From: Thermoplasmata archaeon
Lineage (GTDB): Archaea > Thermoplasmatota > Thermoplasmata > RBG-16-68-12
Length of the DNA: 64,000 nucleotides
Direction of reading: 5' to 3'
Assembly (NCBI GenBank): GCA_035636595.1
Contig: DASPYU010000009.1
Location: forward strand, 31,705 to 95,704
Part shown: one piece after another, positions 14,329 to 26,330 of the stretch
Numbering within the stretch: the stretch's first letter is position 1
Layout of the letters: every line of letters begins with the position of its first letter
Position numbers and translations under genes: made by a program
The notes under the pieces: model-generated
The model's database searches: none
Told to the model about the DNA's origin: nothing
The model's input: only the letters and a program-made list of their open reading frames with translations

Positions 14329-16524
14329 TTGTCCCACGGCATCCAGGCCGCGATTCTTCTTGTTGCCCTCGCTGTCGTCGTTCACCTGTCCGTGCCGACT
14401 GCGGACGCCTGGGCGCGCCCGAAACTCAGTTCTGACTCCTGGCTTCCCCCTGAGTCGTCACCGCTCCCCAAGGTTGCGCTAGAAGACCGCCCTCGTTTCT
14501 CGAATCCGCTCGGGAAGGTAGGTCTTGTGGTCGACCCAAATCGACCTAGAGCGTACGTCACAGGCTACGACTCCGTCATCGTCTATTCGACGCTTACGTC
14601 CGAGATCGAAGCACAGATTCCCGTGCGCGCGAACCCCGTGGCTCTCGCGATAAATCCCGCGGCGACGACCCTCTATGTGGGACACGCCGGGAACCGGTCC
14701 ATTCTGGCGATCAACCTCTCGACCTTGTCCGTCACACGCGTCCTCCCAACGGCATTCCTGGTTTGGGATCTTGTCGCCCCCACCAACGAAACCCTCGTCG
14801 CAACAGCCCATGAGGAAAATTGGGTCGACCAACAGCCGTACATCCTCAACTCGACTGACGGAACGGTGCTCGGGCGTCTTTGCGACCCCTCATGGTGCAT
14901 CGTATTTGAAAACAGCTTGGCGACCGTCAGTGCCGACCGCAATTGGCTTTTCCTCGTCGAACCCGCACAGCCCAACTACTTCAGTCGGTTCAGCAAAGGA
15001 CCGGAGCCCTGGAACTGGACCTTTGTCTCCAAGAAAGGCGACCATGGTGTGACGGGCACGAATGCGCAGGATGCCGTCGTTTCCCCTGATACCCAGTATC
15101 TCTACGTCGCGACCAACGGGGACGGGCTCCTTCAGTTCGATGCGACGAATTTCACAATCACGCGGAGGTACGGCACGGCTACAGACTTCTCTGCTGTGGC
15201 TTTATCTCCTTCCGGGAATCAGGTCCTGGGGTGTGCATTCGATGCCGCCCTCCACGTGTTCGATTCGAACGGCCAACCCTTGGTCGACTATCCGCTGCCA
15301 TGGCCGGTTGCGATCGCTCGCCCCTTGCCGGGGGGATATCGATACGCGGCGAGCGCAGGATCCGTCCTCATCATCGTCGGCGGAACGACGCTTACGCCGA
15401 CAAACCCCTACCCGATCTTCGCGGATTCCCGCCCCACGCTGGAGGCTACACTCGCTACGAACCTTAGCGTGGCCGATCTAAGTTTCGAGATGGACCTGGA
15501 TGGAGCTCCAATTGCAGCAACTCTGGACGAAAGCCAGATGATGCTTCGAGGCGTCCCGAATGGTCCGCTCCCGGACGGCAACTACTCCGTCGTGGCAGTC
15601 GCCTCTCGGCAAGGAACCGTAGTGGCGTCCGCAAGCTGGACCTTCGCCGTCGACACGACTCCACCACGCATCGCCTTCGAGCCGCTCCCCGCTGTGGTTC
15701 ACGATTCAGCCATCACCGTACGCGGGACCGTTGAGGATGCGCACCTCTGGAACGTGACCGTGGCGGGCCAGCCGGTGGCGTTCACCTACTGGATGGGCAC
15801 CGTAGCTCAGTTTCAGGCGGTTGTCGGACTCTGGCCCGGAAACAACTCAATCCCCATGATCGCCTCTGATGTCGCGGGGAATCGAGCTTCGATCAACATT
15901 GCGATCGCCTTCGAGCCGCTCTTCGAGTCCTTCTCGGCCGACCTCGGCCACTTCCGCATTCTTGCTCCCATAGGATGGCAGACAAAGGAAGCCGGAGAGC
16001 CGCGCGAAGGCGGTGCCTCACTCCTCATGCCCGGAGGCACGCGCGATGGCACGGCGAACGTTCTCATTTCCTGGCAATCGGCGGTGCTGTGGGGCACTTA
16101 CTCAGAAGCTCGGTCCCTTCTCGAACAGGATTTGCGGGCTCGATCCCTGGACAACTCACCGTATGGGCATTCGATCGTCGAGACGAGCTACGACGGGCAT
16201 CCCGCTGCGCTGGCGACGTTTTCGTTTCCTCCGTCGCCGTATGCGGGCTACCTCGCCCTCGCAGTAGTTGTTGATGGCGACTGGGGTCTGTATTGGAGTC
16301 TGCAGGGGAGCGCGGTCGGGAACGCGACATCCTACGGAACGGTAGTGAGCGAATCAATGGCATCGATTGACATTCTTCAAGCGCCTCCGCCCTCGCTGTA
16401 TTATCGGTTCGCCCAAGCGCATGACGTACTGCTAGCCATCGGGCTCGCCGCAACGGCCCTGGAAGGAACAGTCATGCTGTCGTTGGTTCTCCGACAGAGG
16501 CGGCAGGCGCGGAAGGCTGCGTGA
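14329..16524 (+). CDS. Large cell-surface protein with YVTN-type beta-propeller and Ig-like domains, C-terminally membrane-anchored
   Basis: 731 aa: signal peptide, repeated YVTG../LYVG.. propeller-like blades, C-terminal TM LLAIGLAATALEGTVMLSLVL followed by RQRRQARK. Confidence 0.55.
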   Translation: MSHGIQAAILLVALAVVVHLSVPTADAWARPKLSSDSWLPPESSPLPKVALEDRPRFSNPLGKVGLVVDPNRPRAYVTGYDSVIVYSTLTSEIEAQIPVRANPVALAINPAATTLYVGHAGNRSILAINLSTLSVTRVLPTAFLVWDLVAPTNETLVATAHEENWVDQQPYILNSTDGTVLGRLCDPSWCIVFENSLATVSADRNWLFLVEPAQPNYFSRFSKGPEPWNWTFVSKKGDHGVTGTNAQDAVVSPDTQYLYVATNGDGLLQFDATNFTITRRYGTATDFSAVALSPSGNQVLGCAFDAALHVFDSNGQPLVDYPLPWPVAIARPLPGGYRYAASAGSVLIIVGGTTLTPTNPYPIFADSRPTLEATLATNLSVADLSFEMDLDGAPIAATLDESQMMLRGVPNGPLPDGNYSVVAVASRQGTVVASASWTFAVDTTPPRIAFEPLPAVVHDSAITVRGTVEDAHLWNVTVAGQPVAFTYWMGTVAQFQAVVGLWPGNNSIPMIASDVAGNRASINIAIAFEPLFESFSADLGHFRILAPIGWQTKEAGEPREGGASLLMPGGTRDGTANVLISWQSAVLWGTYSEARSLLEQDLRARSLDNSPYGHSIVETSYDGHPAALATFSFPPSPYAGYLALAVVVDGDWGLYWSLQGSAVGNATSYGTVVSESMASIDILQAPPPSLYYRFAQAHDVLLAIGLAATALEGTVMLSLVLRQRRQARKAA

Positions 16525-17333: not shown

Positions 17334-19391
17334 GTGCGCGACCCGGGACCGGCGCTCGCGACGTTCGTCGTGGCGCTCGTCCTGGCGTCGTCCTCCCCCT
17401 GGGCGGGTGGCGGTGTCGAGACCCTTGGCACTCCCCCTCCTCGGACCGCACCCGCTCTTTTTCCACGGGGGGATGGCGGAGCGAGCCTCCTTCTGACACG
17501 CGTCTACGCGAACTCCGCGCGAGACGACGAGTTCGTCGAAATCGCGAATCTCGGGTCGGAGTCCCGCGACCTCGTGGGATGGTCGCTAACGGATGGCGAG
17601 GCGACCGCTACGTTCCCGCTCGATTCGATCATCCCGGCGGCCGGTCGGCTCTTGGTGGTACGGAACTCGACGAGCTACGCCGAGGACACGCTCGCGATCG
17701 CGGATTTCACGTGGGAGAGCGGCCTCGTTCGTCGGATGGAGGGTGGCATCCTCCGGCTCGCCGACGCGGGCGACGAGGTCCGCCTGCTCGATCAGACCCG
17801 CACCACCGTCGACGCGTACGTGTGGGGGAACTCGGACGACAACGGTCCTGGATGGACCGGCCCTCCCGCGGTAGCCATGGGGCGCGGCGAGATCGCCGTG
17901 CGCACATCGGACGGACTCGGAGGTTGGACCGATACGGATGCCGCCGAGGACTGGGCCGGGGTGCGACATCACCGCCTAGGACAATCGAGTTTCGGACTGT
18001 CCACGTTCGAGATTCGTGGTCGAATCACTCCGGTCCTGTCCCCGGACGCGGGCGATGTGCCGCTGCTTTCGTTCCTCGCCTCCGCGACGCGCTCCCTTGA
18101 TCTCGGCGTCTACACCTTGACAAGTGAGCGGATCGGCGCGGCGCTGGCAAATCTCGCGGAGCGCGGCGTCCACGTTCGAGTCCTCGTGGACGGAGCGCCC
18201 GTCGGCGGCGTCGAGGACGAAGAGAAACGGATCCTCAGCGGACTCGTTCGTGCCGGCGCGGAGGTGAGATGGCTTGCGGGAGGGACGGATGTCGTCAAGA
18301 GATACCGCTACCTGCACGCGAAGTACGCGGTCGCGGACGGCCGCGCGGCCTGGATCGGGTCCGAGAATTTCGGGGCTGCCGGGTTCCCCTCCGGCAATGG
18401 GGATGGCAATCGCGGATGGTCCGCCATCATCGATGACTCCGAGATTGCGCGCGCCCTCGCGGCCGTGTTCGATGCGGACTTCGACTCCCGTCGCCGCGAC
18501 TCGATCCCCGTGCCGCTCACCTCGTTGGACCCGCTTCCGCCACCGCCCGTCGTTTCCCCATGGAGTCCGTCTCTCGATGGGACCGTCCGACCCGCACGCC
18601 TGCTCATCGCCCCCGACAACGCGCTCGATCCCGGTGGCCTCTTGGACGCCATGGCGTCCGCGCAGGACCGCATGTGGATCGAGGCGTTCTACGTCGACGA
18701 GGCGTGGCGAGACGCACCGAACGCGTTGGTCGAGGCGGCGTTCGCGGCGGCGCGCCGCGGCGTCTCCGTGCGGATCGTACTCGATGGGAGCTGGTGGTCG
18801 GTCGGGGAAGGTTCCTCCGGGAATGATCGGATCGTCGAACGCCTCAACGGCCGAGCGCGGAACGAGAGCCTGGACTTGGAGGCTCGGCTTCTGGAACCGC
18901 GAGGCCGCATCGAGCGGCTCCACAACAAGGGCCTCGTCATCGACGGACGCACCGTCCTCGTCTCGAGCATGAACTGGGCCCTCGGGTCCGCCACGGAGAA
19001 TCGGGAGATCGGGATCCTCGTCGAGGACCCGGATCTTGCGGCGTTCTTCGAGGCCGCGTTCGCCGCGGACTGGGACGGACGCCCCACGTCCGGGGTCGAC
19101 GCGTGGCGGCTCGAGGATCCCGCGGTCCTCCTCGGACTGTACGCGTTCGTCGCGGCCGCGTCCGCGATTTCGCTGCGGAAACTGAGAGTCGGGTCCAAAG
19201 GCATAAAGCCCCGCGAGAGGCTGCGAACGCGTGCCTCCCTCGGAGCTCATCTCCGCCGCGGACCTGGAGAAGTTCGGGTACTGCCCGCTGAGCTGGTGGC
19301 TCAGCCGCGGGCTCGCGCCGGAGGAAGGCGCCGAGCTCGCGGAGGGCGAGAAGAAGCACGAGGCCGCCTCCGCGGACCTGAAGGGGATTGA
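17334..19391 (+). CDS. Secreted PLD-superfamily protein: N-terminal lamin-tail domain plus two HKD motifs, C-terminal TM anchor
   Basis: Signal peptide, an LTD-like segment (DEFVEIANLGSESRDLVGWSLTDGE), HKD motif 1 (YLHAKYAVADGRAAWIGSENF), HKD motif 2 (RLHNKGLVIDGRTVLVSSMNW), then TM LLGLYAFVAAASAISL. The ORF runs on 160 nt into the next gene in another frame. Confidence 0.7.
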   Translation: MRDPGPALATFVVALVLASSSPWAGGGVETLGTPPPRTAPALFPRGDGGASLLLTRVYANSARDDEFVEIANLGSESRDLVGWSLTDGEATATFPLDSIIPAAGRLLVVRNSTSYAEDTLAIADFTWESGLVRRMEGGILRLADAGDEVRLLDQTRTTVDAYVWGNSDDNGPGWTGPPAVAMGRGEIAVRTSDGLGGWTDTDAAEDWAGVRHHRLGQSSFGLSTFEIRGRITPVLSPDAGDVPLLSFLASATRSLDLGVYTLTSERIGAALANLAERGVHVRVLVDGAPVGGVEDEEKRILSGLVRAGAEVRWLAGGTDVVKRYRYLHAKYAVADGRAAWIGSENFGAAGFPSGNGDGNRGWSAIIDDSEIARALAAVFDADFDSRRRDSIPVPLTSLDPLPPPPVVSPWSPSLDGTVRPARLLIAPDNALDPGGLLDAMASAQDRMWIEAFYVDEAWRDAPNALVEAAFAAARRGVSVRIVLDGSWWSVGEGSSGNDRIVERLNGRARNESLDLEARLLEPRGRIERLHNKGLVIDGRTVLVSSMNWALGSATENREIGILVEDPDLAAFFEAAFAADWDGRPTSGVDAWRLEDPAVLLGLYAFVAAASAISLRKLRVGSKGIKPRERLRTRASLGAHLRRGPGEVRVLPAELVAQPRARAGGRRRARGGREEARGRLRGPEGD

Positions 19392-20229
19392 GACCCACGA
19401 GGCCCGGGCCCGCGAGGCCGAGACGGGCGTGATGTACTTCGCGATCGCGGCGTCGATCGTCGCGATCCTGGGCCTGAATTTCCTCTCCGCGTCCGCGTTG
19501 CAGGTCGCGCAGATCCTCGGGGCGATCGCCCTCATTTGGCTCCTCGCCGCCGTCTATTTCCTCTACCGCGCGGAGACGCTTGCGACGCCGGAGGAGAAGC
19601 TCCTCTCGGAACGAGTCATCCTGGGATTCGCGATGGCCGCTGCGGTCATCGCGACGGCCGCCGTCTCGTTCCCCGGGTTCGAGAACCAGGCCCTCGCCCA
19701 AGGGTTCGAGGCGATCGCGCTCGTCTGGCTCATCGGCGCGTCGTTCTTCCTGTACCGCTCGATCGGCGCGCTCGCCGTCGCGCTCGCGACCCGCCTGAAG
19801 TACCAAGTGAAAGGCGACCTTGTGTACATCGACTCGACCGCCGAGAAGCCGAAGCTCTTCGTGTCGAAGCGGCACGGCCTGTCCGGCCGGCCCGACGCGG
19901 TCGTGATGGACGGGGACCAGCACATCCCCGTGGAGATCAAGACCGGACGCGTGCCGCGCGGGCCGCTGTTCTCGCACATCCTGCAGGTCGTCGCGTACTG
20001 CTTCCTCCTCGAGGAGGAATACGGCAAGGCGCCTCCGTATGGGATCGTCCGCTACGGGGACACGAACTACGAGATCGAGTACAACGAGGATCAGAAGAAG
20101 CTCCTGATGCAGAAGCTCACGGAGATGCGCGCGGCGATCACGAAAGGCGAGGCGCACCGGAACCACAACCGGCCGGGAAAGTGCGTCCACTGCTCCCGCC
20201 GCAGCGGGTGCCCGGAGCGGCTGGCCTAA
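19231..20229 (+). CDS. Cas4-like (DUF83, RecB-family PD-(D/E)xK) nuclease with a four-TM-helix insertion
   Basis: GTG start. N-terminal ISAADLEKFGYCP (Cas4 N-terminal Cys), RecB motifs GRPDAVV and IPVEIK, QxxxY (LQVVAY), and C-terminal CVHCSRRSGC (C-x2-C-x5-C, Fe-S). An inserted ~130 aa (MYFAIAASIVAILGL.., ILGAIALIWLLAAVYFLY, VILGFAMAAAVIATAAV, FEAIALVWLIGASFFLY) predicts 4 TM helices. Confidence 0.7.
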   Translation: MPPSELISAADLEKFGYCPLSWWLSRGLAPEEGAELAEGEKKHEAASADLKGIETHEARAREAETGVMYFAIAASIVAILGLNFLSASALQVAQILGAIALIWLLAAVYFLYRAETLATPEEKLLSERVILGFAMAAAVIATAAVSFPGFENQALAQGFEAIALVWLIGASFFLYRSIGALAVALATRLKYQVKGDLVYIDSTAEKPKLFVSKRHGLSGRPDAVVMDGDQHIPVEIKTGRVPRGPLFSHILQVVAYCFLLEEEYGKAPPYGIVRYGDTNYEIEYNEDQKKLLMQKLTEMRAAITKGEAHRNHNRPGKCVHCSRRSGCPERLA

Positions 20230-20564
20230 GGCTCCTTCTTCTTGTCGCCGAGGACCACGCCGAGGCGCGCCGCGATCTGCTCGACCCGGTCCGTGAGCTC
20301 GCGGATCTCCTGGCGCATCCGCAGCATCTCCTGCTCGAACGGCGTGAAGCCTTGCGTCGAGAGGACGCGGTGCGACACGAACATCCCGAGGAAGACCGCG
20401 CCGACGATCGACAGCACGGAGATCAGCATGAGGGCGAAGACGAACGTCAGGAACGATCCGATGATGTTGCCCGGGGTGATGAAGCCCGTGACGACGCCGA
20501 TCTCGACCGCCACGAGGACCCCGACGACGAGGATCCAGAGGAGCGTCCAGCGGGAGATCCTCAC
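20226..20564 (-). CDS. Small membrane protein with a C-terminal coiled-coil tail
   Basis: GTG internal start of track ORF 20226..20786. Three TM helices, then EQEMLRMRQEIRELTDRVEQIAARL. Confidence 0.4.
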   Translation of the reverse strand: MRISRWTLLWILVVGVLVAVEIGVVTGFITPGNIIGSFLTFVFALMLISVLSIVGAVFLGMFVSHRVLSTQGFTPFEQEMLRMRQEIRELTDRVEQIAARLGVVLGDKKKEP

Positions 20565-21067
20565 GGCAGCGTCCCCCGACGCGGGATCGACCAGCGGAAG
20601 TCGTTCGGCGCGGTGACGGTGATCACCGTGTTCCGGTTGTCCGCCTCGTACGGGAACGTGAAGACCATGACGGTGCGGTTGTCCGAGTTCTTCTCCGCAT
20701 GGCCCGTGAGGTTGTATTCGAAGTAGTTCCCTTGCTGGTCGACGAAGTATGCGTGCAGGGAGAACGTCGCGTTCGACGGAATCCACGTGTGCTCCTCATA
20801 TGTGTCGAACCAGTCGTAGGCCTGGTTCGCGGCCGGCTCGGACCCGTTCGTCGTCAGGCGGATCTCATCGTACCGGTACGCCTGGACCGCCGCACCCAGG
20901 TTGATGATGAACGTCGAGTCGTTCGCGGACATCCCGACGATCAGGAGGGGCCAGGACGTGAGCTCCGTCGTCGGTCGCCCGAGGAGACTGGGCGTCGCGA
21001 GGATGAGCCCCACGAGCGCCACGATCGTCAGGGCCATCAGGCCCCGATTCCACACCGCGCGCTCCAC
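20561..21067 (-). CDS. Hypothetical secreted or anchored glycoprotein-like protein
   Basis: N-terminal signal/TM plus a domain with many NxS/T sequons (NDS, NGS, NAT, NLT, NRT). Its stop overlaps the downstream start by 4 nt, suggesting an operon. Confidence 0.45.
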   Translation of the reverse strand: MERAVWNRGLMALTIVALVGLILATPSLLGRPTTELTSWPLLIVGMSANDSTFIINLGAAVQAYRYDEIRLTTNGSEPAANQAYDWFDTYEEHTWIPSNATFSLHAYFVDQQGNYFEYNLTGHAEKNSDNRTVMVFTFPYEADNRNTVITVTAPNDFRWSIPRRGTLP

Positions 21068-21117: not shown

Positions 21118-21468
21118 TCACGCGGTCTCGGGCCCGAAATGCAGGAGGGAGGCGAAGCCGAACAGGCACGCGCTCACGACCGCCGCGAGGAAATTCGTCG
21201 AGGCGCCTTCGATCGTGCCGTAGGCGAGGTATCCGATGGCGGGAATCGCGAACGACGCGGCGCTGAACAAACCGCTCGAGAGCCAGAGGAACTTCCGGAT
21301 GCGGGCGGTGAAGGTGAGCTCGACTTCCTCTTCGCGCTCGACCGGGGCCGAACCGATGACGAACTTCCAGGTCTGGGCGAGGAGCTTCCAGATCCGGGCG
21401 AGGATGGAGGCGCCCGGGGTCTCGACCGGTGCCGGCGGAACCGAGACGGGTTCCGTGACCGTCGCCAT
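21118..21468 (-). CDS. Small hypothetical membrane protein
   Basis: 116 aa with two C-terminal hydrophobic helices. Confidence 0.4.
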   Translation of the reverse strand: MATVTEPVSVPPAPVETPGASILARIWKLLAQTWKFVIGSAPVEREEEVELTFTARIRKFLWLSSGLFSAASFAIPAIGYLAYGTIEGASTNFLAAVVSACLFGFASLLHFGPETA

Positions 21469-24290: not shown

Positions 24291-25352
24291 TTACGGCTTC
24301 TTTCGAAACCGCTGCGCCGCAAAGACGACAAGGGCTCCAGCAACGGCGCCACCGAACACGCCGAGGCCAATCCAAGTCCATGGAGTACTGGCCGAGGCCG
24401 CGGCGGCCACGGCAACGGAGAAGCGCGTTGTGGTCGCGTAGCCGCCGGAATCCGTCACGACGAGCGTGATGACATACGTCCCCGCGGACGCGTAGACGTG
24501 GGTTGGGCTCGACTCGGTGCTCGTGGTCCCGTCCCCGAAGTCCCACCGATACGTGTAGGGGGGCGATCCGCCGGAGACCGTCGACGAGAATTGAAGGGCC
24601 CCGGGTCCCACCGCGGTCACGGGCTCGACGATTGGCACGACACTGAGGTTCACGAGGGCACGCGACACGTTGACGAAGAGCACATTCGACAGCGTGTCCT
24701 GACGGTGGTCGACCCCGCCGCTGTCGTACACGATCAGCCACGCCGTGAAGTTGCCGCTCGTCAGGTAGATGTGCACCGGATTGGAATCGGGACTCTGCGC
24801 GCCGTCACCGAGGGTCCAATGGTATTCGTACGGCGGCGTCCCGCCCGTTACCTGACTCGAGAACGCCACCGTGAGGGGCAGTGTGCCGTCCATCGGCGTC
24901 GCGGCGATCGATGCCTCGAGCGTGGGAGGCGGCGGGGGAGGCGGGGTCGTGACCGTGATCGGGTACGATCGGTTGCTCGTCAGGCCCCCGGTGTCTCGCA
25001 CTTCGAGGAGGACCCAATACGTCGCGGGGGAATCGAACGTGTGCGTCGCGTTCTTCTCCGTGGACCACGGGGTGTCCCACGTGCCGTCGCCCTCCCAGTC
25101 CCAATGGACCTCGAGCGCGGTGACCGGGTCCTCCTGGTCGAAGACCTTCGCCCAGAAACTGAAGAGCGTCGTGGTGTTCCCGCCGCCGGGATAGTAGCTG
25201 TAGTTGGCATACGGCGGCGTGTTCGCGAGCGGCGATGGGGACGTACTTCGCTTCGGGAGGCGAGACGCGCTCGGGGAAGCGAACCCCGCCACGGCGATCG
25301 TCAGAAGGACCGCTAGCACGAGACCGATTCGGGCCGCGGGACGGCCGCCCAT
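24291..25352 (-). CDS. PKD-domain cell-surface protein with a C-terminal TM anchor
   Basis: Internal ATG (MGGRPAARIGLVLAVLL, signal peptide) of track ORF 24291..25967. Two PKD domains (YEYHWTLGDG, YTYRWDFGDG), a poly-Pro linker, and C-terminal TM plus RFRKKP. Confidence 0.7.
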   Translation of the reverse strand: MGGRPAARIGLVLAVLLTIAVAGFASPSASRLPKRSTSPSPLANTPPYANYSYYPGGGNTTTLFSFWAKVFDQEDPVTALEVHWDWEGDGTWDTPWSTEKNATHTFDSPATYWVLLEVRDTGGLTSNRSYPITVTTPPPPPPPTLEASIAATPMDGTLPLTVAFSSQVTGGTPPYEYHWTLGDGAQSPDSNPVHIYLTSGNFTAWLIVYDSGGVDHRQDTLSNVLFVNVSRALVNLSVVPIVEPVTAVGPGALQFSSTVSGGSPPYTYRWDFGDGTTSTESSPTHVYASAGTYVITLVVTDSGGYATTTRFSVAVAAAASASTPWTWIGLGVFGGAVAGALVVFAAQRFRKKP

Positions 25353-25445
25353 CGTTATCACCCTCCTCGGGCACCTAGGGCGGGACGGCGGAAAGCCTTT
25401 TCGCGAGGACAACAACGAAATCGGACCACCGCTTGTCTCGCTCCG

Positions 25446-26330
25446 ATGACGGCGGCCGACCGCGGGCCCCTCCTGTACGCCTATCGCCCGATCCCGGCGA
25501 ATCCGATGACGGTCGCGCTGCTGCTCCTCGTGCTCGTCGTGACGTTCCTCATCGGGCCGATCGCCGCAGGTCCGGAGGGGCTGTGGCCGCTCGGAGGATT
25601 CTGCTTCCTGCCCCTTGGCGTCCTCCTCGTCGCGATGACGGTGTACAAGCCGAGCCCCACTTTCGTATTCGAGGACGGAATCGAGATCTCGCTTCCGCTG
25701 TGGCGGCGGATCCTCGGCGAACGACGGTACTACGCCTGGTCGGAGATCCGCGACGTCTATCCGCGCAGCTACGAGGTCGCCGGCTCGTTCCTCTCGCCGT
25801 TCGCGTCGTCCGCAGGGACTCTCGTCCAGACGGGAATCGGACTGGAGACGACCGCCGGCCGCCCACTCCTGATCCGCTTCACGCCCGGCTCGATCCAGGC
25901 GTTCCGCGCCGAGACCCAAGGCTTCGTCGACGCGATGACCGTGATCCGGGATCGATTCGCGCGGCACGGCGCGCGGATGGTCACGACGGCGCGGGCGTTC
26001 AGCGACGCGGAGGTGCTCGCGATGCAGGCGCGTGCTCGGGAGCCGCTCGTCTCAATCGTCGGCGTGTTCCTCGCGTTCTTCCTTCCGCCATCGATCGTGG
26101 CGGCGATCTTGCTCGTCGCAACGGCGGTCCACGCCGAGCTCACGACGCCGCTCATCGGCATCGCTCTGGCCATCGCTCTCTTTCCCCCCGCCGCGTCGAT
26201 GGCGCGCACCCTCCGTCAGAGCGAGCGACGGAACGCGCTGCTCTCCGAACTCGCGAAGTACCAGGAACATCTCCGAGAGGATGCGGGGGCCACCTTCGCC
26301 GAATCCCGAGCCGGACAAAGTTACCCTTGA
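25446..26330 (+). CDS. Hypothetical membrane protein
   Basis: 294 aa with N- and C-terminal TM helix pairs flanking a soluble domain. No recognisable family. Confidence 0.45.
   Translation: MTAADRGPLLYAYRPIPANPMTVALLLLVLVVTFLIGPIAAGPEGLWPLGGFCFLPLGVLLVAMTVYKPSPTFVFEDGIEISLPLWRRILGERRYYAWSEIRDVYPRSYEVAGSFLSPFASSAGTLVQTGIGLETTAGRPLLIRFTPGSIQAFRAETQGFVDAMTVIRDRFARHGARMVTTARAFSDAEVLAMQARAREPLVSIVGVFLAFFLPPSIVAAILLVATAVHAELTTPLIGIALAIALFPPAASMARTLRQSERRNALLSELAKYQEHLREDAGATFAESRAGQSYP

What the first reader, a model, noticed from the sequence alone, without database searches (positions are those of the whole stretch)
19231..20229. Cas4-like Fe-S nuclease with an inserted four-helix transmembrane module, away from any CRISPR-cas context
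The protein carries every Cas4/DUF83 hallmark in canonical order: the N-terminal YCP cysteine, RecB motifs D and E-x-K (GRPDAVV, IPVEIK), Q-x3-Y, and C-terminal C-x2-C-x5-C. About 130 extra residues are inserted between the N-terminal Cys and motif II, forming four strongly hydrophobic helices that predict a membrane-embedded nuclease. I know of no described membrane-integrated Cas4 family. No cas genes or CRISPR repeats occur in the window. The gene's 5' end is overlapped by the secreted LTD/two-HKD PLD gene, and three small membrane or secreted genes converge on its 3' end. One reading is an envelope-associated DNA-processing unit (DNA uptake or scavenging, or a membrane-coupled defence), with an extracellular PLD nuclease handing substrate to a membrane-anchored 5'-3' exonuclease.
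Basis: partly seen in the sequence, partly recalled or inferred. Interest (0 to 1): 0.8.

Follow-up and report, generated by a model that had tools for sequence, protein, structure and literature searches.

The report
Membrane-anchored Cas4 nuclease of Thermoplasmatota
This archaeal gene encodes a Cas4-type iron-sulfur DNA nuclease split by four membrane-spanning helices that should hold it on the inner face of the cell membrane; the design is conserved across a whole archaeal phylum, lies away from CRISPR, and I found no paper describing it.

Summary
ORF 19231-20229(+) encodes a 332-aa protein that passes the curated Cas4 thresholds. It has every catalytic and cysteine motif and a Cas4 fold. 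A 2 x 2-helix hydrophobic module is inserted between the N-terminal Cys/His helix and the nuclease core. It is not an artefact. GC3 is uniform along the ORF. More than 160 full-length homologues share the layout, and 421 GTDB species genomes, the best 80 all Thermoplasmatota MAGs, encode a relative.

Removing the insert in silico restores one contiguous Cas4 alignment. The two hairpins are an internal duplication, and relatives carry 2, 4 or 8 helices. Loop charges place both nuclease halves in the cytoplasm.

The gene behaves as a vertically inherited, solo chromosomal gene. No cas genes, CRISPR array or viral copies were found. The LTD-PLD neighbour stays adjacent in one large clade, with a conserved ~160-nt overlap. 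It is absent from other clades of the family, so the "PLD hands DNA to Cas4" reading is only weakly supported.

Best reading: a CRISPR-independent, membrane-tethered nuclease acting on DNA at the inner membrane face. It is a new variant of a known kind. Its biological role is not established.

The parts
19231..20229 (+). Cas4TM gene: 332-aa Cas4-family nuclease with an inserted 4-helix membrane module
   Evidence: ORF. TIGR00372 80.9 bits, PF01930 and PF12705 above cutoffs. GC3 0.92-0.95 throughout. 100% identical protein present in public assemblies.
19231..19428 (+). N-terminal cytoplasmic module (residues 1-66): Fe-S ligand C18 (19282-19284) and the EGxxxH helix with H43 (19357-19359), running into TM1
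   Evidence: Aligns to the N-terminus of type I-C Cas4 8d3l, C and EG..H included (weak stretch, 2.4 bits). In the deletion construct it joins the core in one stretch on the Cas4g/Cas1g model (NF049935), positions 2-189.
19429..19566 (+). TM hairpin 1 (residues 67-112; TM1 67-85, TM2 92-112, ending in the ALIWLLAAVYFLYR motif)
   Evidence: Hydropathy. Helices in the AF2 model. Invariant Y69, A71, L101, I102, W103.
19567..19614 (+). Cytoplasmic loop between the hairpins (residues 113-128, RAETLATPEEKLLSER)
   Evidence: Mean K+R of 3.5 across 35 homologues, against 0.2-0.7 in the short odd-numbered loops.
19615..19770 (+). TM hairpin 2 (residues 129-180; TM3 129-147, TM4 160-180, with the ALVWLIGASFFLYR motif), a duplicate of hairpin 1
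   Evidence: hhalign of hairpin 1 against hairpin 2 profiles: probability 98%, E 1.2e-13, 53 aligned columns.
19798..20226 (+). RecB-like nuclease core and C-terminal Cys cluster (residues 190-332): D222, E235, K237, Q252, Y256, extra conserved C257, C318, C321, C327
   Evidence: HMM matches. Foldseek top PDB hit is Cas4 8d3q_J, E 2.9e-5, followed by Dna2, ACE1 and MGME1. Invariant columns.
17334..19391 (+). Upstream neighbour: 685-aa surface protein with an N-terminal hydrophobic segment, LTD, two HKD/PLD domains (H328xK, H530xK), a C-terminal TM anchor (596-614) and an Arg-rich tail
   Evidence: Pfam LTD, PLDc_2 x2 and PLDc. DrmC-, NucT- and cardiolipin-synthase-like hits, all below cutoff. 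HKD motifs and TM anchor. Adjacent to Cas4TM in about 55 related loci.
19231..19391 (+). 161-nt overlap of the PLD 3' end with the Cas4TM 5' end; the PLD stop TGA (19389-19391) is formed by ATT(Ile53)+GAG
   Evidence: An overlap of 158-170 nt is kept in 26 of the 27 overlapping loci examined (119 nt in L013), always ending in TGA. In 25 of these the TGA is built from a T-ending ATT or CAT codon (CGT in L037). Codon-position GC follows the Cas4 frame.
20226..20564 (-). Convergent small membrane protein (112 aa, two strong TM helices plus a C-terminal helix); its stop overlaps the Cas4TM stop in CTAA (20226-20229)
   Evidence: Called in L002. TM helices. The 4-nt convergent overlap is kept in about 50 loci. 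A 37% homologue also follows the 8-TM variant. No Pfam family.
20561..21067 (-). Convergent small secreted or anchored protein (~164-168 aa, N-terminal hydrophobic segment)
   Evidence: Conserved only in the closer part of the clade. No Pfam family above threshold.
21118..21468 (-). Convergent small protein (116 aa, C-terminal TM helix)
   Evidence: Conserved only in closer relatives. No Pfam family.

Best explanation
This is a stand-alone, CRISPR-independent Cas4-family PD-(D/E)XK nuclease that is an integral membrane protein.

Architecture. A tandem pair of two-helix hairpins was inserted into an otherwise canonical Cas4, between the N-terminal helix (which carries the first Fe-S cysteine and the metal-binding histidine) and the first strands of the RecB-like core. 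The number of helices is even and the short uncharged loops face outward. Both halves of the nuclease therefore lie on the cytoplasmic side. There they can re-associate, bind the Fe-S cluster through C18 plus C318/C321/C327, and form a normal active site (H43, D222, E235, K237, Q252, Y256). These steps rest on the sequence and on comparative data.

Inferred role. The helices act as a tether and packing scaffold, rich in small residues and with an aromatic/Arg belt, rather than as a channel. They confine a Cas4-type end-processing nuclease to the inner face of the membrane. There it would meet DNA ends that appear at the membrane, most plausibly DNA entering the cell (viral genomes or imported environmental DNA), while being kept away from the bulk chromosome.

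Evolution. The gene is inherited vertically as a slowly evolving chromosomal gene across Thermoplasmatota. In the clade of this window it is packed tail-to-head with a surface-anchored LTD-PLD hydrolase and probably co-transcribed with it. That pairing may be a lineage-specific functional link, such as processing of extracellular DNA, or may be only retained synteny.
For: Cas4 identity:
- TIGR00372 scores 80.9 against a cutoff of 65, and the Pfam models are above cutoff.
- PADLOC Cas4 models score E 2.5e-23.
- Foldseek's best PDB hit is type I-C Cas4 8d3q_J.
- A profile search of the PDB finds only Cas4, including a weak alignment of the N-terminal C / EG..H stretch (2.4 bits).

Insertion into a canonical Cas4:
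- A construct of residues 1-66 plus 190-332 aligns in one stretch to positions 2-189 of the Cas4g/Cas1g model (NF049935).
- It raises TIGR00372 to 88.8 bits.

Reality and conservation:
- GC3 is uniform along the ORF.
- 166 full-length archaeal homologues have 3-4 helices detected by a crude threshold. 159 have the N-terminal Cys motif and all 166 have Cx2Cx5C.
- The TM columns are about as conserved as the N-terminal module.
- 421 GTDB species genomes encode a relative.

Hairpin duplication and modularity:
- hhalign gives 98% probability, E 1e-13.
- Relatives carry 2, 4 or 8 helices.

Topology:
- Outward loops are 7-14 residues with mean K+R of 0.2-0.7.
- Inward loops have mean K+R of 3.5-4.8.
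- The 8-TM and 2-TM forms examined (P0122, P0146, P0176) show the same pattern; it is weaker in P0181 and P0182.

Solo, vertical, non-mobile:
- No array or cas genes were found in the window.
- Contexts in 90 related loci are housekeeping.
- Identity tracks Kae1 (Spearman 0.95) and TIM (0.90), at about TIM's rate.
- IMG/VR holds no relative.

Precedent for the inferred logic: SNIPE, a membrane-bound cytoplasm-facing nuclease, cuts phage DNA at injection, and its tether prevents self-cleavage (PMC13190303).
Against: - No biochemical or genetic data exist for any member. All relatives found come from uncultured MAGs.
- A phylum-wide, vertically inherited gene with TIM-like conservation and no defence-island context is not the usual signature of an antiviral gene. 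A housekeeping role (repair, or chromosome/membrane transactions) or a non-DNA substrate is not excluded.
- Topology rests on the positive-inside rule and hydropathy only. No dedicated TM predictor was available.
- The AF2 model is of moderate confidence (mean pLDDT 71; the C-terminal Cys region scores 39-51). Re-association of the two halves and cluster binding are therefore inferred.
- A fifth conserved cysteine, C257 in Q...YC, is present in 164 of 166 archaeal forms and 116 of 117 bacterial 1-TM forms. Its role is unexplained and it could change which residues bind the cluster.
Confidence: 0.6

Rival explanations
1. DNA uptake or scavenging unit. The surface-anchored LTD-PLD enzyme nicks or degrades extracellular DNA. 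The hairpin bundle of Cas4TM, possibly as an oligomer, helps pass DNA through the membrane. The cytoplasmic Cas4 domain then trims or degrades the incoming strand 5'-3'.
For: - PLD and Cas4TM are adjacent on the same strand in about 55 loci, spaced by a 158-170-nt overlap or a 4-24-nt gap.
- The PLD stop inside Cas4TM is maintained by rare T-ending codons.
- A divergent 8-TM lineage also has an LTD-domain gene directly upstream with a 4-nt overlap.
- The PLD has the same layout (signal, LTD, hydrolase, C-terminal anchor, Arg tail) as the membrane-bound extracellular nuclease ExeM (PMC6085458).
- Its best defence-library and NCBIfam matches are the nuclease-type PLDs DrmC and NucT.
Against: - The pairing lies inside a longer conserved housekeeping block, so it may be synteny inertia.
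- About 23 loci of the same 4-TM family, plus the 8-TM (L008, L092), 2-TM (L010) and 1-TM (L011) relatives, lack any PLD or LTD neighbour.
- The helices have no conserved charged or polar pore residues, and their number varies between 2, 4 and 8.
- All nuclease-type PLD hits are below curated cutoffs. The nearest solved relatives are a phospholipase and a cardiolipin hydrolase.
- The PLD evolves much faster than Cas4TM (48% against 66% mean identity).
Confidence: 0.15
2. Housekeeping genome-maintenance nuclease. A solo-Cas4 used for end resection, flap or branched-DNA processing, tethered to the membrane because replication, segregation or division-site DNA transactions in these archaea take place there.
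For: - It is distributed across the phylum, appeared once in each locus examined, and co-diverges vertically with Kae1 and TIM at a TIM-like rate.
- Neighbours are housekeeping genes (TIM, Kae1, L15e, L7Ae, GlmS, Nop5-like, POR).
- No viral or MGE copies were found.
- Solo-Cas4 enzymes are discussed in the literature as having roles outside CRISPR adaptation (PMC5704561, PMC12501428).
Against: - Nothing in the sequence explains why a repair nuclease would need an integral-membrane tether.
- No DNA repair or replication gene is a conserved neighbour.
- No conserved partner was found across clades.
Confidence: 0.2
3. Artefact or mis-annotation. The hydrophobic stretch would belong to a separate ORF or a frameshifted assembly, or the Cas4 motifs would be chance matches.
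For: - The automatic gene call on the identical ENA contig mis-called the neighbouring PLD region (L002: a 227-aa out-of-frame ORF). This shows that calls in this GC-rich region can be wrong.
Against: - GC3 is uniformly 0.92-0.95 across all three parts of the ORF.
- HMM scores are above curated cutoffs.
- More than 160 independent full-length homologues from many assemblies share the architecture.
- Residues in the helices are invariant.
- Hairpin-to-hairpin homology is significant.
Confidence: 0.01

Closest known systems
Canonical Cas4 (TIGR00372 / PF01930; e.g. SSO0001, Pcal_0546, type I-C Cas4 in PDB 8d3q)
   Same: Same fold and all catalytic motifs: the EG..H histidine, D, ExK and Qx3Y. 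It also has the 1+3 cysteine pattern of the Fe-S 'staple'. Scores are above the curated family cutoffs.
   Different: - About 125 residues forming four membrane helices split the domain between the His helix and the core.
- An extra conserved Cys follows Qx3Y, and an HRNH motif precedes the Cys cluster.
- It is not next to cas1/cas2 or an array.
- The published Cas4 phylogenomic survey does not mention transmembrane forms (PMC5704561).
Solo-Cas4 (Hudaiberdiev et al. 2017; Methanosarcina mazei Solo-Cas4, PMC12501428)
   Same: A Cas4-family gene encoded outside CRISPR-cas loci on the chromosome, with its biological role unresolved.
   Different: Described solo-Cas4 proteins are soluble. 'Membrane' and 'transmembrane' do not occur in either paper in connection with Cas4.
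SNIPE, a membrane-bound anti-phage nuclease (PMC13190303)
   Same: A nuclease domain held on the cytoplasmic face by a transmembrane anchor. The tether gives spatial self/non-self discrimination and targets DNA as it crosses the membrane. This is the model for how Cas4TM may work.
   Different: - SNIPE has one N-terminal TM helix, DUF4041 and a GIY-YIG nuclease. It is bacterial and was characterised as an anti-phage defence system.
- Cas4TM has a PD-(D/E)XK Fe-S nuclease with an internal 4-TM insert. It is archaeal and inherited vertically in housekeeping contexts.
- There is no sequence relationship between the two.
Bacterial one-TM 'Cas4' of Anaerolineae/Chloroflexi (e.g. MGQ9627715.1; P0230, P0210)
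   Same: - In the profile search, these are the closest relatives of the Cas4TM core that lack a TM insertion.
- Shared family motifs: GKPD, PVEVK, HxLQLAxYCLLxEE, Cx2Cx5C.
- Their N-terminal helix aligns with TM4.
   Different: They are only about 175 aa, with a single N-terminal anchor. They lack the N-terminal Cys/His module and TM1-3. All are annotated simply as Cas4.
ExeM-type membrane-anchored extracellular nucleases (for the PLD neighbour; PMC6085458)
   Same: Layout of signal sequence, LTD, hydrolase domains, C-terminal TM anchor and a basic tail.
   Different: The catalytic domains here are two HKD/PLD modules, not YhcR/EEP. Nuclease activity is not established: DrmC and NucT hits are below cutoff, and the nearest structures are a phospholipase and MitoPLD.

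Membership tests
Cas4 (TIGR00372 / PF01930) | Profile score above the curated family cutoff | tested here: met
   TIGR00372 scores 80.9 bits (cutoff 65), rising to 88.8 with the insert removed. PF01930 scores 31.2 (cutoff 22.7).
Cas4 (TIGR00372 / PF01930) | RecB-type catalytic motifs: His helix, D, ExK, Qx3Y | tested here: met
   H43, D222, E235, K237, Q252 and Y256 are present. All except H43 are invariant in 35 homologues; H43 is nearly invariant (at least 90%).
Cas4 (TIGR00372 / PF01930) | Four cysteines for an Fe-S cluster (one N-terminal, plus Cx2Cx5C at the C-terminus) | tested here: met
   C18, C318, C321 and C327 are present. 159 of 166 homologues have the N-terminal motif and all 166 have Cx2Cx5C. 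Cluster binding itself was not tested.
Cas4 (TIGR00372 / PF01930) | RecB-like alpha/beta fold | tested here: met
   Foldseek's top PDB hits are Cas4 8d3q_J (E 2.9e-5) and 8d3l, followed by Dna2, ACE1 and MGME1. Core pLDDT is 83-94.
Cas4 (TIGR00372 / PF01930) | Single contiguous soluble domain of about 170-220 aa | tested here: not met
   A four-helix hydrophobic insert of about 125 residues lies between model positions ~51 and ~52.
Cas4 (TIGR00372 / PF01930) | Metal-dependent DNA nuclease activity | not testable with these tools
   Needs purified protein.
CRISPR-associated adaptation module (CAS-Cas4) | Encoded next to cas1/cas2 or other cas genes, or a CRISPR array | tested here: not met
   No array was found. 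No other cas model was hit among 53 window proteins. No cas genes were seen in the 90 related loci inspected. The rest of the genome could not be examined.
Solo-Cas4 (sensu Hudaiberdiev 2017) | Cas4-family gene located outside CRISPR-cas loci and outside mobile elements | tested here: met
   Housekeeping neighbours. No IMG/VR relatives.
SNIPE | DUF4041 plus a GIY-YIG nuclease behind an N-terminal TM helix | tested here: not met
   Pfam finds only PDDEXK_1 and Cas_Cas4. The resemblance is functional and topological only.
AddB / RecB / Dna2 iron-staple nucleases | Nuclease domain fused to SF1 helicase or helicase-like domains | tested here: not met
   The protein is 332 aa with no helicase domain. 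The Dna2 Foldseek hit covers only the nuclease domain.
DUF2339 (PF10101) multi-hairpin membrane proteins | Profile score above the gathering threshold over the TM array | tested here: inconclusive
   One 8-TM relative, P0142, scores 29.7 bits against a GA of 33.6. The window protein and the other relatives scanned (P0122, P0132, P0159, P0187) give no hit.

The most novel reading that the evidence does not exclude
Cas4TM is the cytoplasmic end of an archaeal machine that deals with DNA crossing the membrane.

One version is a constitutive, phylum-wide SNIPE-like guard that destroys viral DNA as it enters. That would be the first such spatial self/non-self nuclease in Archaea, and one derived from the CRISPR adaptation nuclease.

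The other version, together with the surface LTD-PLD enzyme, is a previously unknown DNA-import and scavenging pathway. In it the duplicated hairpins oligomerise into the conduit.
Probability: 0.2. Interest if true: 0.85.

Novelty: new variant of a known kind. Interest (0 to 1): 0.6.

Why it matters
Cas4 is known as a soluble nuclease that trims prespacers for CRISPR adaptation. The roles of the many solo-Cas4 genes remain open.

Here an entire archaeal phylum carries a Cas4 rebuilt as an integral membrane protein, with a sister family of single-anchor forms in Chloroflexi. All of these are currently annotated simply as "CRISPR-associated protein Cas4". This points to a CRISPR-independent job for this nuclease fold at the membrane.

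It matters in three ways:
- It gives a concrete, testable candidate for how archaea handle DNA at the cell boundary (virus entry, DNA uptake, or membrane-linked genome maintenance).
- It warns against counting these genes as evidence of CRISPR adaptation modules in metagenomic surveys.
- The split-domain design, in which a catalytic fold is reassembled across an inserted hairpin array whose copy number varies between 2, 4 and 8, is an unusual case of protein evolution.

Tried and rejected
- **Frameshift or assembly artefact.** Rejected on uniform GC3, more than 160 full-length homologues and hairpin homology.
- **Chance Cas4 motifs.** Rejected by curated-cutoff HMM scores and the fold search.
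- **Hidden CRISPR context.** The tandem-repeat, Rfam and PADLOC scans of the window were negative.
- **Family-wide PLD partnership.** Tested over 90 loci. It holds in one clade only.
- **A universal partner gene in other clades.** None was found. The neighbours are lineage-specific: an Rce1-like protease, a TPD-motif protein, GlmS, L15e, POR and a NosD surface protein.
- **Viral or MGE carriage.** The IMG/VR scan found no relative.
- **Prior description in the literature.** I ran five full-text searches and read the Cas4 phylogenomics, Solo-Cas4, JCVI-syn3.0 and SNIPE papers. None describes a transmembrane Cas4. The library is incomplete, so absence is not proof.
- **Cultured hosts.** Two homologue searches returned only MAG-derived proteins.
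- **AFDB fold search.** The library was unavailable.
- **Taxon names for the bacterial 1-TM representatives via cluster look-up.** Mostly uninformative. Names came later.
- **Occurrence of the TM module in other protein contexts.** Not searched, because the listing cap would have been filled by this family itself.

Full report
**1. What is in the sequence**

A GAGAGG lies about 10 nt upstream of the start.

The protein passes curated family thresholds for Cas4:
- NCBIfam TIGR00372 scores 80.9 bits against a cutoff of 65.
- Pfam Cas_Cas4 scores 31.2 against 22.7.
- PDDEXK_1 scores 49.4 against 22.
- Several PADLOC Cas4 models reach E 2.5e-23.

These matches cover only residues ~201-328, which correspond to model positions ~52-180.

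The motifs can be read directly from the sequence: C18 (YCP), EGEKKH43, GRPD222, VE235-I-K237, Q252-x3-Y256 and C318-x2-C321-x5-C327.

Between H43 and the core lie four strongly hydrophobic segments at residues 67-85, 92-112, 129-147 and 160-180. Their 19-residue Kyte-Doolittle means reach 2.2-2.3 for the first three and 1.7 for the fourth. AlphaFold2, run with a 35-sequence alignment, models four long helices followed by an alpha/beta core. Mean pLDDT is 71, with the core at 83-94 and the C-terminal Cys region at only 39-51. Foldseek of that model against the PDB returns type I-C Cas4 (8d3q_J, E 2.9e-5; 8d3l) first, then Dna2, the Argonaute-associated Cas4-family protein ACE1, and MGME1.

**2. 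It is an insertion into a canonical Cas4, not an artefact**

I joined residues 1-66 to residues 190-332 in silico. The 209-aa product aligns in one stretch to positions 2-189 of the NCBIfam Cas4g/Cas1g model (NF049935). Its TIGR00372 score rises to 88.8 bits.

A family profile searched against PDB sequences finds only Cas4. The hit includes a weak second stretch (2.4 bits) aligning the N-terminal "GYCPLSWW...EGxxxH" to the equivalent Cys and His of the I-C enzyme.

GC at third codon positions is 0.95, 0.92 and 0.93 in the N-terminal, TM and core thirds. That is one coding frame throughout.

The two hairpins (TM1-2 and TM3-4) are homologous to each other. Profile-profile comparison gives 98% probability and E 1.2e-13 over 53 columns. 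Both share the ...AL(I/V)WL(L/I)(A/G)A.(Y/F)FLYR... motif.

**3. Conservation and distribution**

- The first homologue search gave 976 proteins at E <= 0.001. The top 120 are 59-100% identical over the full length.
- A second search from a ~50%-identical member gave another 909.
- Of 166 full-length archaeal sequences, all have Cx2Cx5C, 159 have the N-terminal Cys motif and 164 have Q...YC. A crude threshold finds 3-4 helices in 165 of them.
- In the 35-sequence alignment the TM columns are about as conserved as the N-terminal module (0.67-0.76 against 0.72 majority fraction). Residues inside the helices are invariant: Y69, A71, L101, I102, W103, W166, L167 and A170.
- A scan of one genome per GTDB species found 421 genomes encoding a relative. 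The best 80 are all Thermoplasmata, Methanomassiliicoccales or Thermoplasmatota MAGs.
- A profile search of 1.84 billion cluster representatives found 1,859 hits. Among the best 150 are forms with 2 helices (~260-300 aa), 4 helices (~320-365 aa; also ~400-480 aa in marine forms, one named Candidatus Poseidoniaceae) and 8 helices (~500-645 aa). The count is even in nearly all apparently complete proteins; odd counts occur mostly in fragments or where the crude threshold misses a helix.
- Public annotations are only "CRISPR-associated protein Cas4", "Dna2/Cas4 domain-containing protein" or "PD-(D/E)XK nuclease family protein".

**4. Topology**

Across 35 homologues the loops TM1-2 and TM3-4 are short (7 and 14 residues) and nearly free of Lys and Arg (means 0.17 and 0.66). 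The pre-TM1 segment, the TM2-3 loop and the post-TM4 segment carry 2.8, 3.5 and 4.8 K+R on average.

The 8-TM protein P0122 and the 2-TM proteins P0146 and P0176 repeat the pattern loop by loop; it is less clear in P0181 and P0182. By the positive-inside rule the protein is N-in/C-in.

This places the N-terminal Cys/His module and the nuclease core together in the cytoplasm, as a shared Fe-S cluster and active site require. It is an inference from sequence statistics, since no dedicated predictor was available.

The helices are rich in Ala, Gly and Ser. They have an aromatic/Arg belt at the cytoplasmic boundary and no conserved buried charges. This looks like a tightly packed anchor or oligomerisation scaffold rather than a transporter.

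**5. Genomic context**

The window has no CRISPR-like array and only two tRNAs by Rfam. Among 53 window proteins scanned against PADLOC, only the focal gene hit Cas models. The one-member DrmC hits are attributed to the LTD-PLD protein, which matches the NCBIfam DrmC model. The families matched by 3-4 members (mad3, mad8, AriA, ATPase-Toprim) I take to be cross-hits of the window's ABC-type ATPases. Pfam shows housekeeping content, including EF-1alpha, ribosomal protein S10, FTHFS, TIM and Kae1/TsaD, along with transporters.

In about 55 related loci the order is TIM - LTD/PLD - Cas4TM - small TM gene (convergent) - ... - RHH - aminotransferase - Kae1. This order is kept down to 49% Cas4TM identity. 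Within that block Cas4TM identity tracks Kae1 (Spearman 0.95) and TIM (0.90). Its mean identity is like TIM's (67 against 68%), whereas the PLD diverges faster (48%). That is the behaviour of a vertically inherited, strongly constrained gene.

About 23 loci at ~50% identity have entirely different, again housekeeping, contexts:
- One group has a Nop5-like and an eIF2B-like gene upstream and an Rce1-like membrane protease downstream.
- Another group has a TPD-motif protein upstream and GlmS downstream.

The more distant relatives examined also lack PLD, LTD and cas neighbours:
- 8-TM form: L008, next to L15e.
- 8-TM form: L092, next to AFOR and a NosD/CARDB surface protein.
- 2-TM form: L010, between POR and SIR2.
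- Bacterial 1-TM form: L011.

IMG/VR holds no relative.

**6. The PLD neighbour and the overlap**

The 685-aa upstream protein has an N-terminal hydrophobic segment, an LTD, two HKD motifs (H328xK, H530xK), a C-terminal TM helix (596-614) and an Arg-rich tail. This is the same layout as the membrane-bound extracellular nuclease ExeM (PMC6085458).

Its best named matches are nuclease-type PLDs (DrmC, NucT), but all fall below curated cutoffs. The closest solved relatives are a phospholipase (7e0m) and MitoPLD. Its substrate is therefore open.

Its last 161 nt overlap Cas4TM. This is not an assembly error. An overlap of 158-170 nt recurs in 26 of the 27 overlapping loci examined (119 nt in L013), always ending in TGA. 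In 25 of these the TGA is built from a T-ending Ile (ATT) or His (CAT) codon of Cas4TM followed by GAG (CGT in L037), in a gene whose GC3 is 0.93. In the overlap the codon-position GC follows the Cas4 frame (0.95) and not the PLD frame (0.49). The PLD tail is therefore a passive extension whose stop is nevertheless maintained. More distant loci have 4-24-nt gaps or small overlaps.

A divergent 8-TM lineage (L006) also has an LTD-domain gene directly upstream with a 4-nt overlap, and the same trio of small convergent genes downstream. The Cas4TM stop and the stop of the convergent 112-aa membrane protein share CTAA in about 50 loci.

**7. Interpretation**

Shown by the data:
- This is a bona fide Cas4-family nuclease domain with intact catalytic and cluster residues.
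- It is interrupted by a duplicated two-helix hairpin module.
- The architecture is conserved and modular across Thermoplasmatota.
- The gene is solo, chromosomal and vertically inherited.

Inferred:
- The N-in/C-in topology.
- Reconstitution of the nuclease on the cytoplasmic face.
- The helices act as tether and scaffold.
- The substrate is DNA that appears at the membrane.

The best functional precedent is SNIPE, a membrane-bound, cytoplasm-facing GIY-YIG nuclease. It cuts phage DNA during injection, and its tether prevents cleavage of host DNA (PMC13190303).

Against a classical defence role stand the phylum-wide vertical inheritance and the housekeeping contexts. A genome-maintenance role at the membrane is a serious rival.

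I put the architectural statement at high confidence. Of the biological roles, "acts on DNA entering or contacting the membrane" is the most likely but remains unproven.

**8. Comparison and novelty**

The protein meets every sequence and fold criterion of Cas4 except being a contiguous soluble domain. It fails the CRISPR-association criterion, so it is best filed as a solo-Cas4 with a transmembrane insertion.

The published Cas4 phylogenomic survey, the Methanosarcina Solo-Cas4 study and five full-text searches gave no description of a transmembrane Cas4. The library is incomplete, so this supports but does not prove novelty.

In the profile search, the closest relatives of the core that lack a TM insertion are about 175-aa "Cas4" proteins of Anaerolineae/Chloroflexi. 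They have one N-terminal helix homologous to TM4 and no N-terminal Cys (1,822 clusters at E <= 1e-10). Membrane anchoring therefore characterises a whole, unrecognised branch of the Cas4 family.

Verdict: a real feature and a new variant of a known kind, of moderate to high interest.

Noticed in passing
window 19231-19391 (and L001, L012-L037, L061, L080): The LTD-PLD gene ends 158-170 nt inside Cas4TM in 26 of the 27 overlapping loci examined (119 nt in L013). In 25 of them its TGA stop is formed by a rare T-ending codon of Cas4TM (ATT Ile53 or CAT His) followed by GAG, although GC3 of Cas4TM is 0.93. This suggests selection to keep that stop.
   Followed up: partly
window 20226-20229 (CTAA): The Cas4TM stop (TAA) and the stop of the convergent 112-aa membrane-protein gene (TAG on the minus strand) overlap by 4 nt. 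This arrangement is kept in about 50 related loci, including next to an 8-TM variant.
   Followed up: partly
P0230, P0210, P0244 and P0397-P0515; locus L011: A large bacterial family (1,822 clusters; the named members are Anaerolineae or Chloroflexi) of ~175-aa 'Cas4' proteins. They have one N-terminal hydrophobic helix aligning with TM4 of the archaeal protein. They lack the N-terminal Cys/His module but keep Q...YC and Cx2Cx5C. This looks like a membrane-anchored sister group that is annotated simply as Cas4.
   Followed up: partly
window 19999-20001 (C257): A fifth cysteine directly after the Qx3Y tyrosine is present in 164 of 166 archaeal and 116 of 117 bacterial members of this branch. 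It is absent in some 8-TM and Poseidoniales forms. In the bacterial forms, which lack the N-terminal Cys, it could be the fourth cluster ligand. Its role is unexplained.
   Followed up: no
P0142 residues 101-329: The TM hairpin array of one 8-TM relative gives a sub-threshold match to Pfam DUF2339, a 'predicted membrane protein' family (29.7 bits against a GA of 33.6, E 3.8e-7). This may be remote homology or shared composition.
   Followed up: no
P0187 (Candidatus Poseidoniaceae) loop between TM1 and TM2: The marine Poseidoniales-type variant carries an acidic insert of about 108 residues in the first outward-facing loop (21 D+E, 7 K+R). This would be an extracellular domain added to the anchor.
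   Followed up: no
L002 9059-9742 (= window 18289-18972): The automatic gene call on the identical ENA contig missed the 685-aa LTD-PLD gene. It called a 227-aa out-of-frame ORF with no Pfam hit instead. This is a typical high-GC mis-call.
   Followed up: yes
L059, L063, L065, L066, L068-L070, L073, L076: In one Methanomassiliicoccales-like group Cas4TM is followed on the same strand by a ~450-500-aa membrane protein with an Rce1-like CAAX-protease domain. This neighbour is conserved in 9 loci.
   Followed up: partly
window 14329-16524 and 24294-25967: Other large surface proteins flank the region. One is a 731-aa protein with N- and C-terminal hydrophobic segments and a Glucodextran_B domain. 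The window also holds PKD-repeat proteins, one of them probably the minus-strand ORF at 24294-25967. Together with the PLD they make this stretch rich in envelope proteins.
   Followed up: no
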